From assembly GCA_024402715.1 (NCBI GenBank), contig JAKSTF010000001.1, positions 6,757 through 70,756 of the forward strand: a DNA stretch of 64,000 bases. The letters are read 5' to 3'. The position numbers and the translations under genes were made by a program. Position 1 is the first letter of the stretch. Each line of letters opens with the position of its first letter. This document shows positions 13,792 through 51,872 of this stretch, piece after piece. Below the pieces are notes generated by a model. That model had not been told where the DNA came from and did no database searches. It saw only the letters and a list, made by a program, of their open reading frames with translations. This DNA is from Alphaproteobacteria bacterium. GTDB lineage: Bacteria; Pseudomonadota; Alphaproteobacteria; Rs-D84.

Positions 13792-15000
13792 TTACCTTTC
13801 GTGATTTTGTTTTGCCGTTATATCAGCATGACAATCATGACACAACATTAAACAATTATCTATGGTTGTTTCACCGCCATCTGAAAAAGCGACTTTATGA
13901 TGTGCCTCTAATTCTTTGATATCAAATTCACGTCCACACCTGCCCCCACATTTTTTGTTTTGGTTTTGATATGCCGCACGTTGTTGTTTTTCTGTAAACA
14001 CACGATGCCAAATTAGTGTTCTGTCACCAGATAAAACGTATTCATAGAATCCTGCTTTTTTTAAGCCATCAGGATCAATATCATACAATTCAAATAACCT
14101 TAACAATTCTTTTTCCAGTGCATCTGTATCGTAATTTTTATTATGATATTTATTATACAAAATTCCCCACGATAGACCTCGCATTTCTTTTCTGTACACT
14201 GGGAACGTTTGTTTTACCCATGATATAACCGATTTATAATAATTTATCAATTCATCGGCATTATCATCCGCCCTGTGTTTTGCCATATAATATTTTATTT
14301 CTGGGTATTCGGTTTTATCTGTATCAATTATCCACTGTAATACCAATTCCAACAAAGCCTGTCGATTGGCATCTTCACCATTTATTGATAATAAACTATG
14401 TTTGATATCATTATCATAAAAGGCAAAATTGATAGCCGGATTATTTGTTTTTTTAGAAAAATAACCTTTCGCATCTGTTAACCATACCCCAGTATAATCG
14501 GCATTTAATAATTCCTGTTCCTCCATTATTTTTCCCGCAATATTTATTGTGTGAAACCAATCAAGTTTTTCATCATCCGTACCATCACAAACATATATTT
14601 GCAATTTATAATCATCCAAAATCTGTTTTTGTTTTTCCGGCGATAAATTTTCAAATGTTTGTGTGCGTTTTCCATCAAAATTGATAGCAATCGGATTACC
14701 ATACCCATCATTATTCGTTATAAACTGACACATTGATATCGTGCGTTGTTGGCCATCAATTATTTCAAATGTTCCATCTGGATTTTTTGCCCAATACATA
14801 ACATTCAATGGTAAATTATCATATACAGACCGCATTACCCTGTCCCGATCGGTTGGTTCATAAACAAACGCCCGTTGATAAGCCGGCCGCACATTTAATT
14901 TTCCCCCAAACGCAACAACGCCATTTTCGCCATTATCACAATATCCATTTACCAAATCACGCAAAGTTAAATTATTTAACAAAGTTGCCTTCATAACCAT
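13792..15000 (-). CDS. DUF262 (GmrS/ParB-like) plus C-terminal HNH endonuclease
   Basis: PAYQRAFVY, EIIDGQQRT, FHTIN motifs; C-terminal CxxxC..EAHH..GGET..NCLMLCHDCH; RBS AAGGA before ATG 15000. Confidence 0.88.
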   Translation of the reverse strand: MVMKATLLNNLTLRDLVNGYCDNGENGVVAFGGKLNVRPAYQRAFVYEPTDRDRVMRSVYDNLPLNVMYWAKNPDGTFEIIDGQQRTISMCQFITNNDGYGNPIAINFDGKRTQTFENLSPEKQKQILDDYKLQIYVCDGTDDEKLDWFHTINIAGKIMEEQELLNADYTGVWLTDAKGYFSKKTNNPAINFAFYDNDIKHSLLSINGEDANRQALLELVLQWIIDTDKTEYPEIKYYMAKHRADDNADELINYYKSVISWVKQTFPVYRKEMRGLSWGILYNKYHNKNYDTDALEKELLRLFELYDIDPDGLKKAGFYEYVLSGDRTLIWHRVFTEKQQRAAYQNQNKKCGGRCGREFDIKELEAHHKVAFSDGGETTIDNCLMLCHDCHADITAKQNHER

Positions 15001-15020
15001 TTTTGTTTCCTTTTTATTTA

Positions 15021-15086
15021 TATCACTGTACACAGTGATAGCCATTTCACTGTATTTAATCTTTATTATCACTGTGGGGTTCACTG
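15021..15086. repeat. Cluster of five TCACTG hexamers including a perfect 9-bp inverted repeat
   Basis: TCACTG at 15023, 15047, 15069 and 15081; CAGTGA at 15033; TATCACTGT-ac-ACAGTGATA at 15021-15040. Confidence 0.85.
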
Positions 15087-16045
15087 CTAGAATTCTTTTT
15101 TCTACGAATTAGAATTCTATTATACGGGCAACTACTAATACCATTTACCGTAATAGATAAATCTGTTCTGCCACGATAATTTTTTATTATTCCTAATTCT
15201 TTAGCTGTATCTCCTGTTCCCATGCCAACAATTTCAAATTGTTCTGGATTATGCCTATCCAAAAATGTAATTGGCACCCCCATAACACCATAATAATCCA
15301 TTGGTACATCAGATGTTTTTGAAACATTTATTGCATCATAATTATCATATTTTGGATATTGATCTTCAAAACCATAATACTTTTTACCGGTCTCTATAAA
15401 TTCACTTCTCTTTGTTGTTGATAAATTTGTAAACCATCGTGTCAAACCATTAACCTTTTTTGTGATTTCATTATTATAAATAAAATTACATGGGGAATTA
15501 TACCCAAGCCAAATTTTATTATTTTTTATAAGTGGAAAAACTTCTTTATACGCAATAGCATTTTTATTACCAATAATTAAAAAATCCTTATCATATTCAA
15601 TTAACTGTGCAACATATTCACGAAATAATGAAAATGGCGGATTTGTTATTACAATATCGGCACTTTTTAATAATTCAATACATTCGGGGCTGCGAAAATC
15701 ACCGTTGCCACGCAATGGTTGTTCCATGATATCTTCACTGCATATAATTCCATCACCGGTATTGTCTTTGTCCAAAACATACATTGTTGATTTACCATCA
15801 CGCTCATAATGTGTGGCAATTACACGTTTTATACCAAACGATTCAAAATTATCGGCAAAATATTTTATAAAATTTGACTTTGGTGTCCCCATACCAATAC
15901 CAAAATGATCATCACAGTTGCAATAAATAACCTTACCTCGAAAATATTTTGCATAGTGATTTAATTCTTTTTCTATTTCATCATAACACGTGTAGAATTC
16001 ATCATCTTTCGCTTCTTTTGCGTGAAGCATAGTATGCTTTGCCAT
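15056..16045 (-). CDS. Adenine-specific DNA methyltransferase, EcoRI-methylase family
   Basis: AKDDEFYT, KVIYCNCDD, GDFRSPEC, DIVITNPPFSLFREY, MGVPITFLD. Confidence 0.92.
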   Translation of the reverse strand: MAKHTMLHAKEAKDDEFYTCYDEIEKELNHYAKYFRGKVIYCNCDDHFGIGMGTPKSNFIKYFADNFESFGIKRVIATHYERDGKSTMYVLDKDNTGDGIICSEDIMEQPLRGNGDFRSPECIELLKSADIVITNPPFSLFREYVAQLIEYDKDFLIIGNKNAIAYKEVFPLIKNNKIWLGYNSPCNFIYNNEITKKVNGLTRWFTNLSTTKRSEFIETGKKYYGFEDQYPKYDNYDAINVSKTSDVPMDYYGVMGVPITFLDRHNPEQFEIVGMGTGDTAKELGIIKNYRGRTDLSITVNGISSCPYNRILIRRKKNSSSEPHSDNKD

Positions 16046-16064: not shown

Positions 16065-16292
16065 AAAAAAAATTAACCGCCAATCAGGAATGGCGGTCGG
16101 GGTGTTAGAAAAATCAGTTTATCAATGACCCCATTGGTCTTTGGGTAAACCCTGAACATACACCAACGGCACCCCGACCATATAATCGGGATTATAACGG
16201 TGCGAAAATACACCGAATTTTCGGATTACGATGCTTTCGCACCAGATAAACAGGACTTTTCTAAGGTCCCGAACCCAATTCCCATTGGATTC
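16065..16292 (-). ncRNA. Structured 5' leader RNA, copy 1 (C4/CI-like antisense attenuator candidate) ending in an intrinsic terminator
   Basis: Homologous to 51284-51502 with covarying stems; GGGA-tetraloop hairpin at the 5' end; terminator ACCGCCA..TGGCGGT followed by a U-tract just before the MTase RBS. Confidence 0.8.
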
Positions 16293-16299
16293 AATGTTT

Positions 16300-16308
16300 A
16301 GTATACCA
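16300..16308 (-). promoter_or_regulatory. Extended -10 promoter element (TGGTATACT) for leader copy 1
   Basis: TGnTATACT lies 7 nt upstream of the conserved GAATCC start; same spacing as in copy 2. Confidence 0.5.
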
Positions 16309-16329
16309 TAAAAATGCAGATTATAAATC

Positions 16330-49202: not shown

Positions 49203-50267
49203 TTAACTATTTACCATATTTTTTATCATAAATTCTAATCCACAACCATTTACAAAATAATTATTGGGATATCTTTTCAAATTTTGTAATATATGCGAAT
49301 ATTGATGTTCGTGTTTGTTTTTAGTATTTCCTGTTGTAATATCAGAATCCATATAATCAGATATATCAATAGTATTAAATTCATTATCAATATTTGATAT
49401 ATTGTTATCTGCTGCTAATGCTTTAATAAAATTCCCCTGTAAGCACGAAACATAGTGTATATTTGGCTGTTCTTCTGTTTGATTTATAAAATTTATAATC
49501 TCATTTATCGCTTCATTTTGACTGCCCCCATCACCATTTGTCATTTTATGTTCAATAATAAAAAATTCATTGTTACATTTTAACAGTAAATCTGGATATT
49601 TATTATCACGAGCTGTGGCAAAAATAAATTTAATATTTTTATATTTTATAAAAGATTTAAATAATTGCTTACCATCCTTATCAGGCAAAATATAACACCT
49701 GGGAGCTGATAATAAATTTTCAAGCGTTTCTGTTTTTTTAAATCCCAATGAGGATATAACTGTTTCAACTTTTTGAATACCAGTTTTTCCATTCCGCCTT
49801 GCCGACGCTACATCCGACATAACCTGTAATATTTGGTCAGAATATCCATAAGATAAATACATATCGTGTCTATTTGTTAAATACATATCTAGTATCTGTG
49901 TTAACAAATCTATCTTGTCATCAAGCGTCATTTGTTTTTGTTCAGTTTGATATGCCGAATACGAGTATTTTAATACCTGAAAATATACGCAGAATGCTGA
50001 ATAATTTATCAATTTAACATTATCAAGTATTTCAATAATTTCTAATATTATTTTTCGTATTGAATTATCGTGTTTATAATCATTTTGAGAGCATAATACT
50101 TTATATGCGGTTATCAATTCAACCAGTCTATTATTGGCAATTTGTAATTCTTTCGGTTGCAATTCGCTGTTTTTTGAAACGACCTCTACACCCGCAGGAT
50201 TAGAAAAATCTATAATTTTATCAGCATTATATAAACTATACTTAAAATATTCTATATTAGGTCGCAT
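49203..50267 (-). CDS. Putative Type II restriction endonuclease (PD-(D/E)xK)
   Basis: YPDLLLK..IIEHK catalytic-like motif; overlaps the upstream MTase by 16 bp; very AT-rich. Confidence 0.7.
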   Translation of the reverse strand: MRPNIEYFKYSLYNADKIIDFSNPAGVEVVSKNSELQPKELQIANNRLVELITAYKVLCSQNDYKHDNSIRKIILEIIEILDNVKLINYSAFCVYFQVLKYSYSAYQTEQKQMTLDDKIDLLTQILDMYLTNRHDMYLSYGYSDQILQVMSDVASARRNGKTGIQKVETVISSLGFKKTETLENLLSAPRCYILPDKDGKQLFKSFIKYKNIKFIFATARDNKYPDLLLKCNNEFFIIEHKMTNGDGGSQNEAINEIINFINQTEEQPNIHYVSCLQGNFIKALAADNNISNIDNEFNTIDISDYMDSDITTGNTKNKHEHQYSHILQNLKRYPNNYFVNGCGLEFMIKNMVNS

Positions 50268-51268
50268 ATTTCAGTCCCTTCTTTTTGCATTAAATCGTCA
50301 TATACATTTTCCAAAATTGCTCGAACCAATCTAAAATCTATCCTTCGACGCCGAATACCACTTTTTGTATTCCCTTTAAATGCTGTTAATGCTAAATCTG
50401 CCGATTTTTCACGAATTTCTTGAATTTTATTATTTAAATTCTTTATAAATTTACATTTTAAATTTTCTGGAACATCCATATTTATTAAAGTGATATGTCT
50501 AGAAGATACTTTTATATTGTTTTCCCAGTCATAGTTCATATCATCTTTTAAAGCGAAACATATTTTATTTTTATCATTGCTGCTATCAACAGCACGCAAT
50601 CCCAACCATCCATTTAAATCATTAAATGTGATTTTGATATTATTTTTCGGCTCTAAACGAGAATTATAAACATCATCCAAAGTAGATATTAATGTATCAT
50701 TTTTATAAATCTTTATTTCTTTTTGACTTTTAGGGTTTCCATCAAAACACACAACACAAACCGGTGTTTCTGTATCTATGAATGGATTTTCTTCTAACAC
50801 TGTTATGGAATGTAATAAGTTCTTATGTAAAAAACTCGAATTGATAAAACTTTCTGGGATTATTGCTATCACGTATTTTTGTGCTTTCAGCATATTTTCC
50901 AAAGCCAACAAATAAACATCGTCGTAAATCGTATTTTGAAAATATTTTGATAAATCTATTTTTTTTCTAGAAGCAGATTGTTTTGCAAGATATGGTGGAT
51001 TTGTTATTATTATAGCATTTTTTATGTATGGTATTTTTTCAAGGCTATCGTTATGTTGCCATCCAAATTGGTCATCTATATCTAGACCTGTCATTGTAAA
51101 ATTAATTGGATTCAAAGCACTAACGGTTTTCAATAATTCACCAGTTCCCGCAAAGGGGTCATATATCACATTGCATTTACTTTCATATATAAAATTTTCA
51201 ATGTGTTTTTTTAACCACAAAGGATTAACTGTAAAAAATTGTCCTAATTCTGTCTTTTTATTCGCCAT
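50252..51268 (-). CDS. Amino (N6-adenine type) DNA methyltransferase
   Basis: LGQFFT (motif X), YDPFAGTG (motif I), IITNPPY (motif IV). Confidence 0.88.
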   Translation of the reverse strand: MANKKTELGQFFTVNPLWLKKHIENFIYESKCNVIYDPFAGTGELLKTVSALNPINFTMTGLDIDDQFGWQHNDSLEKIPYIKNAIIITNPPYLAKQSASRKKIDLSKYFQNTIYDDVYLLALENMLKAQKYVIAIIPESFINSSFLHKNLLHSITVLEENPFIDTETPVCVVCFDGNPKSQKEIKIYKNDTLISTLDDVYNSRLEPKNNIKITFNDLNGWLGLRAVDSSNDKNKICFALKDDMNYDWENNIKVSSRHITLINMDVPENLKCKFIKNLNNKIQEIREKSADLALTAFKGNTKSGIRRRRIDFRLVRAILENVYDDLMQKEGTEICDLI

Positions 51269-51283
51269 GACTAAAATCTTTGT

Positions 51284-51502
51284 AAAAAAACCGCCCCAAT
51301 AGAGAGCGGTCGGGTATCTTCAAGGTCATATAGCGAATGACTTCCGTTGCCTTCGGACAAAATCCTATTGTATAACAACAGATAACCCGACCATTAGTCA
51401 GGCATTAACGATGCGAATGCATCATTTACGAAATAGATTACGATGCAATTCGCACCGCGCTATATGGGTCTTGAAAACCCGAAACCAATTCCCATTGGAT
51501 TC
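51284..51502 (-). ncRNA. Structured 5' leader RNA, copy 2 (C4/CI-like antisense attenuator candidate) ending in an intrinsic terminator
   Basis: Homologous to 16065-16292; same stems built from different sequence; terminator CCGCTC..GGGCGG followed by U7, 15 nt before the MTase ATG. Confidence 0.8.
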
Positions 51503-51509
51503 AGTAATT

Positions 51510-51537
51510 ATTTTACATCAAACAGTTATAAAATCAA
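51510..51537 (-). promoter_or_regulatory. Promoter for leader copy 2
   Basis: TTGATT-16 bp-TAAAAT, 7 nt before the conserved GAATCC. Confidence 0.5.
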
Positions 51538-51645: not shown

Positions 51646-51671
51646 CAAAAACCGCACTTAAAAAGTGCGGT
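51646..51671 (-). terminator. Terminator after the tRNA pair
   Basis: ACCGCACTT..AAGTGCGGT followed by a U-tract on the minus strand. Confidence 0.75.
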
Positions 51672-51679
51672 GTATCTTT

Positions 51680-51765
51680 TGGTGGGAGTGGTAGGAGTCG
51701 AACCTACTCAAGCATAGCTAACAGATTTACAGTCTGCCCCGGCTCTCCGACTCCGGCGCACGCCC
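51680..51765 (-). tRNA. tRNA-Tyr (GTA)
   Basis: GCAGA-CTGTAAA-TCTGT anticodon arm, long variable arm, GGTTCGACTCC T-arm, encoded ACCA; one C-U mismatch in the acceptor stem. Confidence 0.95.
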
Positions 51766-51797: not shown

Positions 51798-51872
51798 TGG
51801 TGCGGGCAGCGGGAATCGAACCCGCATTTCAAGCTTGGAAGGCTTGCATACTAGCCTTTGTACTATGCCCGC
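51798..51872 (-). tRNA. tRNA-Gly (TCC)
   Basis: GCGGGCA/TGCCCGC acceptor stem, CTTCCAA anticodon loop, GGTTCGATTCC T-arm, encoded CCA. Confidence 0.96.

What the first reader, a model, noticed from the sequence alone, without database searches (positions are those of the whole stretch)
51308..51392. 85-nt C4/CI-like core whose variable loop is antisense to an upstream site and to the MTase start region
Seen: the stem GGTCGGG..CCCGACC encloses exactly 85 nt in both copies (16095-16179 and 51308-51392). Inside are one long arm, a small hairpin (GTCAT-TCGCTAT-ATGAC in copy 2; GTCA-TTGATAAAC-TGAT in copy 1) and a 3' unpaired segment (CTTGAA; TTTTCTAA). The loop and the unpaired segment are complementary to two sites upstream in the same leader. 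The hairpin region can also pair downstream: in copy 2, ATTCGCT-at-ATGAC with GTCATGGCGAAT (covering the ATG); in copy 1, GTCATTGATAAACTGATTT with AAATCAGGATTTATGTAATGGC (covering SD and ATG, with bulges). Established: phage P1/P7 C4 RNA and P4 CI RNA are ~80-nt RNAs processed from their own leader, with exposed antisense segments that bind upstream and downstream targets and shut the operon off after a delay. Inference: the same timer logic could allow an initial methyltransferase burst in a naive cell and then damp expression, replacing a C protein. Copy-specific antisense sequences would insulate the two R-M loci from each other.
Basis: partly seen in the sequence, partly recalled or inferred. 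Interest (0 to 1): 0.88.

Follow-up and report, generated by a model that had tools for sequence, protein, structure and literature searches.

The report
C4-like leader RNA before accessory genes
The 85-base element is the core of a roughly 220-base folded leader RNA, built like the phage C4 antisense RNA, that sits in front of many accessory genes in a group of small-genome gut bacteria and probably decides whether transcription runs on into the gene.

Summary
Their pairing to two upstream sites is real: it co-varies across about 100 copies. The core is the 3' domain of a ~220-nt 5' leader that starts at the predicted transcription start and ends in an intrinsic terminator 17-30 nt before the start codon.

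The leader is not methyltransferase-specific. This genome holds 6 copies and relatives hold 1-36. They precede methyltransferases, lipoproteins, glycosyltransferases and nucleases.

The core is related to Rfam sRNA-Xcc1, with sub-threshold matches in both directions. It has the layout of phage C4 RNA. Classical sRNA-Xcc1 loci carry C4-style downstream target copies around the ribosome-binding site, in 8-9 of 14 read.

In this lineage the pairing to the start region is at chance: 4 of 74 copies fall in the best 5%. The two window copies are top 1%.

Mutually exclusive helices A:B and B:C plus the terminator point to a cis switch. What sets the switch is unknown.

The parts
51510..51537 (-). Promoter-like site of copy 2 (TTGATT, 16-nt spacer, TAAAAT). 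It ends 6-7 nt before the conserved RNA.
   Evidence: The same position and TTGnnT / TGnTAnAAT pattern appear in 71 copies.
51283..51503 (-). Copy 2 leader RNA, a full-length match to covariance model R1.
   Evidence: 155 bits, E 3.5e-45. Fold z-score -5.65.
51481..51502 (-). P1 hairpin GAAUCCAAU-GGGA-AUUGGUUUC. It is nearly invariant among the copies collected by the pattern scan.
   Evidence: Covariation is seen in own-genome copies L126 and L127.
51466..51480 (-). P2 hairpin. Its loop UUCAAG (51470-51475) is upstream site a1, which pairs with the 3' unpaired segment.
51458..51465 (-). Segment AUAUAGCG just after P2. This is upstream site b1, which pairs with the small-hairpin loop.
   Evidence: 31-57 of 97 sequences changed on both sides per pair.
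51397..51403 (-). Arm A (GCCUGAC), the alternative partner of arm B. Together they form a local hairpin.
   Evidence: 93.7% of cells paired; three-way covariation.
51308..51392 (-). It holds closing stem B:C (GGUCGGG 51386-51392 with CCCGACC 51308-51314), the long arm P5, the small hairpin P6 (51325-51341) and the unpaired segment a' (51319-51324).
   Evidence: B:C 95.6% paired. Related cores hit RF02221.
51289..51311 (-). Intrinsic terminator-like hairpin followed by a U tract. Its 5' arm overlaps arm C.
   Evidence: 96.2% paired; 7-18 sequences changed on both sides in 4 pairs.
50252..51268 (-). Downstream gene of copy 2: an N6 DNA methyltransferase of 338 aa. A 354-aa ORF with no family match (49203-50267) overlaps its end.
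16300..16327 (-). Promoter-like site of copy 1 (TTTATA, 16-nt spacer, TATACT, preceded by TG).
16069..16293 (-). Copy 1 leader RNA, a full-length match to R1. The core is at 16095-16179.
   Evidence: 199.1 bits. Fold z-score -5.42.
16075..16098 (-). Intrinsic terminator-like hairpin with U tract of copy 1.
15056..16045 (-). Downstream gene of copy 1: an EcoRI-family adenine methyltransferase. A GmrSD_N+HNH protein follows at 13792-15084.

Best explanation
The 85-nt segment is the 3' core domain of a ~220-nt 5' leader RNA. The leader belongs to the same architectural class as phage C4 RNA and is related to Rfam sRNA-Xcc1.

Layout, 5' to 3', from the predicted transcription start:
- hairpin P1;
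- hairpin P2, whose loop is site a1;
- site b1;
- a variable domain P3;
- arm A;
- the core, made of arm B, long arm P5, hairpin P6 whose loop is b', single strand a', and arm C;
- an intrinsic terminator whose 5' arm overlaps arm C;
- the ribosome-binding site and start codon.

Shown: a' pairs with a1 and b' pairs with b1, forming two pseudoknots. Arm B can pair with arm A or with arm C, but not both.

Inferred: when the core is closed (B:C, held by the two pseudoknots) the base of the terminator is occupied and RNA polymerase reads on into the gene. When A:B forms, arm C is free, the terminator forms and the gene stays off. In GC-rich relatives arm C (CUCCCC) pairs with the ribosome-binding site instead of forming a terminator. 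In classical sRNA-Xcc1 loci a' and b' have second targets around the ribosome-binding site.

The element is therefore a cis-acting conformational switch placed in front of accessory genes; here all six copies precede restriction-modification-type genes. What sets the switch is open. It could be the accumulating core RNA itself, as in C4/CI, or a ligand, a protein, or folding kinetics.
For: Structure:
- On 97 distinct sequences, 91.7% of cells are paired against 77.9% in shuffles, and 703 cells changed on both sides against 201.5; 0 of 500 shuffles reach the observed values.
- Sliding the 3' partners by 1-3 columns drops pairing to 35-47%.
- RNAalifold on its own picks the two long-range pairings.

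Switch:
- B:C is 95.6% paired, A:B 93.7% and the terminator 96.2%.
- Three-way covariation occurs at shared B positions: C-G-C (70 sequences) becomes G-U-G (5) or G-U-A (3); C-G-C becomes U-A-U (2); G-C-G becomes A-U-A (2).
- Both window copies have A:B plus the terminator in their minimum-energy folds.

Position:
- The promoter-like site ends 6-7 nt before the element.
- The start codon follows 17-30 nt after the model's end in most copies.

Different expression platforms on one core:
- A terminator in the Rs-D84 copies.
- In 6 of 6 GC-rich copies there is no terminator, and arm C plus the ribosome-binding site fold as a hairpin of -9.3 to -14.9 kcal/mol.
- Downstream a2/b2 copies around the ribosome-binding site in classical sRNA-Xcc1 loci.

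Kinship:
- RF02221 hits over the whole model at 23.8 and 29.4 bits.
- R1 hits 8 of 24 true sRNA-Xcc1 loci at the same place, best 35.7 bits, E 1.8e-9.
- The layout matches a C4 locus.
Against: - There are no RNA data. No RNA run holds the region, so the transcript ends, termination and read-through are all predicted.
- The B:C overlap with the terminator is only 3-4 nt of a 7-9 bp stem. Antitermination by B:C is therefore plausible but not compelling.
- The A5 alignment was fitted to a model that contains B:C, which favours that helix.
- Most A:B and B:C positions are invariant G-C pairs and say nothing either way. The three-way covariation rests on few sequences.
- The z-scores for the hairpins that sequester the ribosome-binding site are weak (-0.85 to -3.45).
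- Matches to RF02221 are below its gathering score of 53 bits. The window copies give no RF02221 hit even at E<=10.
- No input signal has been identified.
Confidence: 0.6

Rival explanations
1. The 85-nt core is released as a stable small RNA. It pairs through its hairpin and unpaired segment with the start region of its own methyltransferase mRNA, shutting it off after a delay.
For: - The related sRNA-Xcc1 is seen as an ~88-100-nt RNA on Northern blots with mapped ends (PMC2996969, passages and section 8).
- Classical sRNA-Xcc1 loci and a C4 locus carry a2/b2 copies at the ribosome-binding site and AUG.
- Both window copies show start-region pairing in the top 1%. In copy 2 I count 9 contiguous pairs over AUGGCGAAU.
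Against: - 4 of 74 non-redundant copies fall in the best 5%, median rank 0.47.
- Four of the six own-genome copies are average.
- Of 9 methyltransferase-linked representatives, only the two window copies stand out.
- Pairing is not positionally conserved in L071, which precedes a related methyltransferase.
- Copy 2's core pairs better with the start region of the contig-45 locus.
- In copy 1 the duplex uses the P6 stem arms, not the loop.
- AUGGCGAAU encodes Met-Ala-Asn and also opens the contig-45 and L090 methyltransferase genes, whose own loops do not match it.
Confidence: 0.12
2. C4/CI-type autoregulation through the upstream sites. Processed core RNA pairs in trans with a1/b1 on nascent leaders from the same locus. 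This prevents docking in cis and so favours A:B plus the terminator. The result is a burst in a naive cell followed by shut-off, with copy-specific addresses.
For: - The a/b pairings are highly copy-specific: 97% of cognate pairs fall in the best 5%.
- Up to 36 leaders share one cell, so crosstalk-free addresses would be useful.
- The architecture is shared with C4.
- P4 CI RNA is recalled to cause termination by pairing to the leader; this comes from memory, not from a call.
Against: - There is no evidence of processing.
- The terminated leader keeps its own a1/b1, which would occupy a'/b' within the same molecule.
- Sequence diversity could come from drift with compensation alone.
Confidence: 0.15
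3. A constitutive structured 5' UTR (stabiliser, processing site or translation enhancer), or a stand-alone small RNA that ends at the terminator and has targets elsewhere. The downstream gene would then be expressed by leaky read-through.
For: - The terminator is strong and conserved.
- sRNA-Xcc1 is described as a trans-acting sRNA in the title of Chen 2011, seen only as a citation.
- The minimum-energy fold is the terminated form.
Against: - The AUG sits at a fixed short distance after the terminator, with no room for a separate promoter.
- Alternative helices with three-way covariation exist.
- The expression platform is swapped for one that sequesters the ribosome-binding site in GC-rich relatives.
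- The loop and the single strand are occupied by intramolecular partners.
Confidence: 0.08
4. A leader that depends on a protein antiterminator, for example a NusG paralogue of the RfaH/LoaP type or another RNA-binding protein that recognises the nearly invariant P1 hairpin.
For: - P1 is almost invariant among the copies that were collected through the P1 pattern.
- The gene set (surface proteins, glycosyltransferases, mobile genes) resembles regulons of specialised antiterminators; this resemblance is recalled, not tested.
Against: - The own genome (96.6% complete) has only one NusG-domain gene.
- P1 sequence and loop are not conserved in GC-rich or sRNA-Xcc1 relatives.
- P1 invariance is partly a sampling artefact, because the loci were collected with a P1 pattern.
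Confidence: 0.05

Closest known systems
sRNA-Xcc1 (Rfam RF02221), first found as an 88-nt RNA in Xanthomonas campestris
   Same: - The core architecture and motifs are the same: closing stem GGYCGGGG..CCCCGRCC; long arm with UAUACAA..(hairpin)..GAAAG; a second hairpin; a 6-8-nt single strand.
- Detection works in both directions.
- Complementary upstream partners in a hairpin loop and the segment after it were found in 14 of 14 loci read.
- It lies directly upstream of a gene on mobile DNA (passages of bioRxiv 10.1101/2025.06.18.660453 and 10.1101/2020.03.17.996009).
   Different: - The window copies do not reach the Rfam model, with no hit at E<=10.
- The Rfam model covers only the 3' domain.
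- Copies in this lineage have a terminator and lack the downstream a2/b2 copies.
- They occur at 1-36 copies per ~1 Mb genome.
- sRNA-Xcc1 is described in print as a trans-acting sRNA. I saw that title only as a citation and could not read the paper.
Phage P1/P7 C4 antisense RNA with its a1/b1 targets (Rfam RF01695 and RF03163, clan CL00128)
   Same: - Both have a closing stem, two hairpins, a large second loop and a 7-nt single strand.
- a1 lies in an upstream hairpin loop and b1 just after it, both complementary to the core (one search compared).
   Different: - No match to either Rfam model.
- No conserved a2/b2 in this lineage.
- An intrinsic terminator follows the core.
- The first hairpin is a long arm with an internal loop rather than a short tetraloop hairpin.
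- The downstream genes are not icd/ant-type immunity genes.
- RNase P processing is unknown.
Phage P4 CI RNA (recalled, not examined here)
   Same: A leader-derived ~80-nt RNA whose pairing with sites in the same leader leads to premature termination. This is the closest analogue for a terminator-coupled version.
   Different: Nothing was tested here. No sequence or model comparison was made.
Transcription-terminating riboswitches
   Same: A conserved, pseudoknotted domain in which a switching helix shares nucleotides with a terminator or with a helix that sequesters the ribosome-binding site. Different expression platforms sit on one conserved domain.
   Different: No ligand is known. The downstream genes share no metabolic theme. 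The pseudoknot sequences are copy-specific rather than conserved.

Membership tests
C4 antisense RNA (RF01695 / clan CL00128) | Match to the Rfam covariance model at or above its gathering score (45 bits) | tested here: not met
   C4 is not listed even at E<=10 for either window copy. The own genome gives 0 matches.
C4 antisense RNA (RF01695 / clan CL00128) | Closing stem enclosing two hairpins, with the antisense determinants in the second hairpin loop and the following single strand | tested here: met
   Consensus, compared with the structure counted.
C4 antisense RNA (RF01695 / clan CL00128) | Complementary upstream sites a1/b1 in the same transcript | tested here: met
   The layout is as in C4 locus L174.
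C4 antisense RNA (RF01695 / clan CL00128) | Complementary downstream sites a2/b2 overlapping the ribosome-binding site or start of the next gene | tested here: not met
   Cognate pairing equals non-cognate: 4 of 74 in the best 5%. The two window copies alone are in the top 1%.
C4 antisense RNA (RF01695 / clan CL00128) | Processing from a longer precursor by RNase P into a stable ~77-85-nt RNA | not testable with these tools
   No RNA run was available. The predicted transcription start coincides with the 5' end of the leader.
sRNA-Xcc1 (RF02221) | Match to the Rfam covariance model at or above its gathering score (53 bits) | tested here: not met
   Window copies: no hit at E<=10. Own genome: 0 matches. 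Relatives L139 and L136: 23.8 and 29.4 bits over model positions 1-87.
sRNA-Xcc1 (RF02221) | Homology of the core shown by detection in both directions and by shared motifs | tested here: inconclusive
   R1, built from this lineage, hits 8 of 24 true loci at the RF02221 position (E from 1.8e-9 to 0.025). The UAUACAA..GAAAG arm is shared. Scores are modest and 16 of 24 loci are not hit.
Riboswitch-like cis-regulatory leader | Conserved structured domain supported by covariation, lying immediately 5' of coding genes | tested here: met
Riboswitch-like cis-regulatory leader | Mutually exclusive helices that link the domain to a terminator or to the ribosome-binding site | tested here: met
   This is a sequence-level inference with no functional data.
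Riboswitch-like cis-regulatory leader | Binding of a specific ligand | not testable with these tools
   No candidate ligand. The downstream genes are heterogeneous.

The most novel reading that the evidence does not exclude
These leaders, and sRNA-Xcc1 RNAs in general, would be self-addressed C4/CI-type immunity RNAs. The ~85-nt core is cut out and acts in trans only on nascent transcripts from its own locus, through copy-specific a/b address sequences. Each of up to ~36 accessory genes per cell (restriction-modification, surface proteins, toxins, anti-repressors) would then get its own burst on arrival followed by shut-off. In the Rs-D84 bacteria the output has been rewired from blocking the ribosome-binding site to an intrinsic terminator.
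Probability: 0.25. Interest if true: 0.85.

Novelty: new variant of a known kind. Interest (0 to 1): 0.7.

Why it matters
- It links three things that the Rfam copy searched here does not place together: C4 is in clan CL00128, while sRNA-Xcc1 is listed with no clan. The three are phage C4 RNA, the supposedly trans-acting sRNA-Xcc1 of plant pathogens and integron cassettes, and an unannotated leader that is among the most repeated non-coding elements in Rs-D84 gut Alphaproteobacteria.
- It suggests that the Rfam sRNA-Xcc1 model is only the 3' domain of a longer cis-encoded regulator, with upstream and often downstream target copies.
- In genomes of about 1 Mb, one leader type in front of methyltransferases, nucleases, lipoproteins and glycosyltransferases could be a main control point for defence and surface variation.
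- It gives a concrete, mutation-testable switch (a1/b1, A/B/C, terminator).
- My searches for a prior description of this layout found none. Chen 2011 and paper supplements could not be read and may bear on that.

Tried and rejected
- **Known Rfam family for the window copies.** None was found at gathering score or at E<=10.
- **Methyltransferase-specific controller.** Rejected. Only about 12 of 88 distinct downstream proteins are DNA methyltransferases.
- **Start-codon antisense as a family feature.** Rejected.
- **NusG-paralogue antitermination.** The own genome has one NusG gene only.
- **Carriage on sequenced phages.** blastn of copy 1 against the phage collection found no match.
- **GNRA tetraloop/receptor docking of P1.** I considered this from recalled motifs and dropped it, because GC-rich relatives lack the GNRA loop.
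- **Invertible promoter or mobile repeat.** I considered this because of the gene set. Nearly every copy had an ORF in the same orientation at a fixed distance, and the stems show RNA-type covariation.
- **Expression data.** No RNA holder was listed, and read laying was not used.
- **Chance pattern matches.** L064 (Mesorhizobium) and L103 matched the pattern but are not in the model hit list.
- **Census caveats.** The start of copy 2's gene was mis-called by my ORF script and was corrected by hand. The methyltransferase-linked subset was picked by N-terminal motifs, not by Pfam.
- **Reading of sRNA-Xcc1 loci.** Only 14 of the 24 fetched loci were read, and by eye, because the script machine was lost.
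- **Unavailable sources.** Chen 2011 (PMC3256417) is not held. Paper supplements were not available.
Full report
**What is at the coordinates.** Both loci are read on the minus strand. GGTCGGG..CCCGACC spans 51308-51392 and 16095-16179, 85 nt each. Downstream lie DNA methyltransferase genes: 50252-51268 (N6_Mtase/Eco57I) and 15056-16045 (EcoRI_methylase). These are followed by a 354-aa ORF with no family match and by a GmrSD_N+HNH protein. The two upstream regions align over about 250 nt at 75% mean column identity, so the conserved element is much longer than 85 nt. A third copy precedes another EcoRI-like methyltransferase on another contig of the same genome.

**Collecting the family.** A 20-base pattern from the first hairpin found 115 stretches among one genome per species. 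Nearly all are gut Alphaproteobacteria metagenome-assembled genomes, many named Ca. Enterousia. That genus belongs to the uncultured, genome-reduced order Rs-D84 (PMC12306168, passages). I aligned 43 diverse copies (A4) and built covariance model R1 (223 positions, 54 pairs). R1 finds the following:
- six full copies in the window's own 1.0-Mb genome (E 1e-62 to 5e-45), plus one weak hit;
- 105 matches in 100 sources;
- matches in 52 of 61 genomes of the family, 1-36 per genome, with at most 37 candidates scored per genome;
- matches in 53 of 61 genomes of the order;
- matches in 6 of 40 other Alphaproteobacteria families;
- among 40 further genomes sampled across the phylum, a match only in one other alphaproteobacterium.

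**Anatomy.**
- A sigma-70-like promoter (TTGnnT, about 17 nt, TGnTAnAAT) ends 6-7 nt before the conserved RNA in both window copies and across 71 copies. The RNA therefore begins at the predicted transcription start.
- The order of parts is: P1 hairpin; P2 hairpin; a short variable segment; a variable P3 domain; arm A; arm B; long arm P5 with a conserved internal loop; hairpin P6; a single strand; arm C.
- An intrinsic terminator-like hairpin with a U tract follows (51311-51289 and 16098-16075).
- The start codon lies 17-30 nt after the model's end in most copies.
- Both leaders fold far better than shuffled sequence (z -5.65 and -5.42).

**The upstream pairing is real.**
- The P6 loop is complementary to the segment just after P2, and the single strand after P6 is complementary to the P2 loop.
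- In 73 non-redundant copies, cognate duplexes average -6.6 and -5.19 kcal/mol against -0.59 and -0.79 for non-cognate pairs. 97% and 56% of cognates fall in the best 5%.
- On 97 distinct sequences, each of the seven loop/segment pairs has 31-57 sequences changed on both sides.
- The whole structure has 91.7% of cells paired against 77.9% in shuffles, and 703 cells changed on both sides against 201.5. None of 500 shuffles reaches these values, and slid controls drop to 35-47% paired.
- RNAalifold chose these long-range pairs unaided.
- The P2 and P6 stems co-vary themselves. I therefore read the contacts as two pseudoknots rather than one long helix.

**The downstream pairing is not a family feature.**
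- The P6 hairpin against the region -30..+20 around the start gives -6.15 kcal/mol for cognate and -5.94 for non-cognate pairs. Median rank is 0.47, and 4 of 74 fall in the best 5%.
- The core against the stretch from the U tract to +100 gives 8 of 74 in the best 5% (an earlier version is).
- The two window copies are exceptions, at -12.6 and -14.2 kcal/mol with rank 0.00-0.01. The other four copies of this genome rank 0.21-0.57.
- Copy 2's core pairs better with another locus's start region (-19.0 against -15.0).
- Among 9 methyltransferase-linked representatives, only the window's two stand out.
- In L071, which precedes a related EcoRI-like methyltransferase, the best duplex sits elsewhere.

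**Not methyltransferase-specific.** Pfam on 88 distinct downstream proteins gave these matches:

| Pfam family | Proteins |
|---|---|
| EcoRI_methylase | 5 |
| N6_N4_Mtase | 3 |
| N6_Mtase | 2 |
| Eco57I | 2 |
| C-5 DNA_methylase | 1 |
| HsdM_N | 1 |
| Flg_new | 3 |
| OMP_b-brl | 2 |
| Autotransporter | 1 |
| GIY-YIG | 2 |
| ResIII | 1 |

Several glycosyltransferase families and a hexapeptide transferase also matched. By inspection of the N-termini printed, many of the proteins carry signal-peptide or lipoprotein N-termini. In the window's own genome all six copies precede restriction-modification-type genes: five methyltransferases, and one protein with a GIY-YIG-type nuclease match that is below the family cut-off.

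**A switch.**
The terminator is 96.2% paired.
- At positions of B shared by both helices, A and C change together with B: C-G-C (70 sequences) becomes G-U-G (5) or G-U-A (3); C-G-C becomes U-A-U (2); G-C-G becomes A-U-A (2).
- Arm C overlaps the 5' base of the terminator.
- In six GC-rich relatives there is no terminator. Instead arm C (CUCCCC) is followed 8-15 nt later by the ribosome-binding site (GGGGAG-like) and the AUG, and this stretch folds as a hairpin of -9.3 to -14.9 kcal/mol in 6 of 6 copies. Its z-scores are modest.
- The pseudoknot complementarity is kept in these copies, with entirely different sequences.

**Kinship with sRNA-Xcc1 and C4.**
- A permissive Rfam scan of GC-rich copies hit sRNA-Xcc1 (RF02221) over its whole 87-position model, exactly on the core: 23.8 bits (E 0.047) and 29.4 bits (E 0.21), against a gathering score of 53.
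- The Rfam consensus shows the same closing stem, the same long arm with AUACAA..GAA around a small hairpin, the same second hairpin and the same single strand.
- In the other direction, R1 hits 8 of 24 true sRNA-Xcc1 loci at the RF02221 position. The best hits are 35.7 bits (E 1.8e-9, model positions 117-196) and one full-length match.
- RF02221 itself occurs in 32 of 121 sampled Pseudomonadota genomes and not in the window's genome.
- I read 14 of the 24 fetched loci by eye. All 14 have an upstream hairpin whose loop complements the single strand, and a further upstream segment, just after that hairpin in most loci, that complements the second hairpin loop.
- Of those 14, eight also carry clear second copies of both sequences downstream, flanking or overlapping the ribosome-binding site just before the AUG. 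One is moderate, three are ambiguous and two have none.
- The sequences differ between loci but match at all three sites.
- A genuine C4 locus shows the same layout. a1 lies in a hairpin loop (Rfam c4-a1b1, RF03163), b1 lies just after it, then the core, then a2 and b2 at the ribosome-binding site.

**What the literature says.**
- sRNA-Xcc1 is an 88-nt RNA with a Northern band of about 100 nt (PMC2996969, passages and section 8).
- It lies upstream of symE in the most widespread Xanthomonas integron cassette (bioRxiv 10.1101/2025.06.18.660453, passages).
- It is multi-copy in Xylella, and in the annotation table of a second Xylella strain an sRNA-Xcc1 copy is listed next to C4 and IsrK annotations (PMC12189769, passages).
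- It lies upstream of an ORF6N-domain gene in APSE phages (bioRxiv 10.1101/2020.03.17.996009, passages).
- None of the passages I saw describes the three-site layout, and searches for such a link returned only co-annotations.
- Chen 2011 could not be read.

**Reading.**
- Shown: the structure, the two pseudoknots, the mutually exclusive helices, the position between promoter and gene, the terminator-like hairpin, and the family's breadth and gene contexts.
- Inferred: that B:C closure prevents termination, that the leader therefore controls the downstream gene in cis, and that it descends from or converges on the C4/sRNA-Xcc1 design with the a2/b2 output replaced by a terminator.
- Unknown: the input. 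By analogy the input could be the accumulating core RNA itself. In this lineage it would have to act on a1/b1, not on the start codon.

**Verdict.** The specific claim of antisense control of the methyltransferase start, and of insulation between two restriction-modification loci, is not supported. What is there is a new, terminator-coupled, highly expanded branch of a known kind of RNA.

Noticed in passing
window 51683-51765 and 51801-51872 (minus strand): Two tRNA genes lie just upstream of copy 2's promoter. A bidirectional terminator-like hairpin sits at 51651-51671.
   Followed up: partly
window 13792-15084 (minus strand): The gene after the EcoRI-like methyltransferase encodes a GmrSD_N plus HNH protein, a type normally aimed at modified DNA. 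This is an unusual partner for a methyltransferase in one operon.
   Followed up: no
L157, L153, L158, L160 and L163, between b1 and the core: Classical sRNA-Xcc1 loci have a hairpin followed by a U run (for example CCGC..GCGG then UAUUUUUG) between the upstream sites and the core. It contains an arm-A-like CACCCG sequence. Its role is unexplained; it may be an internal terminator or an equivalent of P3/A.
   Followed up: no
L089:3027-3209 (+) and L089:5249-5432 (-): Two leader copies face each other about 2 kb apart, each followed by its own ORF.
   Followed up: no
L011, L086, L100, L015, L099, L043 and L096: Short-form leaders without the P3 domain, identical or nearly identical in sequence, recur across the metagenome-assembled genomes hit by the pattern. 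Some subsets are followed by the same small genes, which suggests a shared mobile element or phage.
   Followed up: no
L031, L068, L077, L079 and L066: Real copies of the leader lie on contigs binned as Muribaculaceae, Gastranaerophilales and Bacteroides fragilis. These are probably mis-binned contigs, or possibly transfers.
   Followed up: no
G163: One 2.1-Mb alphaproteobacterial genome has R1-type hits and weak RF02221-type hits at different loci, so both branches may coexist in one genome.
   Followed up: no
window 51481-51502 and 16272-16292; L126, L127, L128: P1 is almost invariant and has a GGGA or GAGA loop in the Rs-D84 copies that I collected through the P1 pattern, so the invariance is biased by that sampling. 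GC-rich relatives have a P1 of unrelated sequence.
   Followed up: partly
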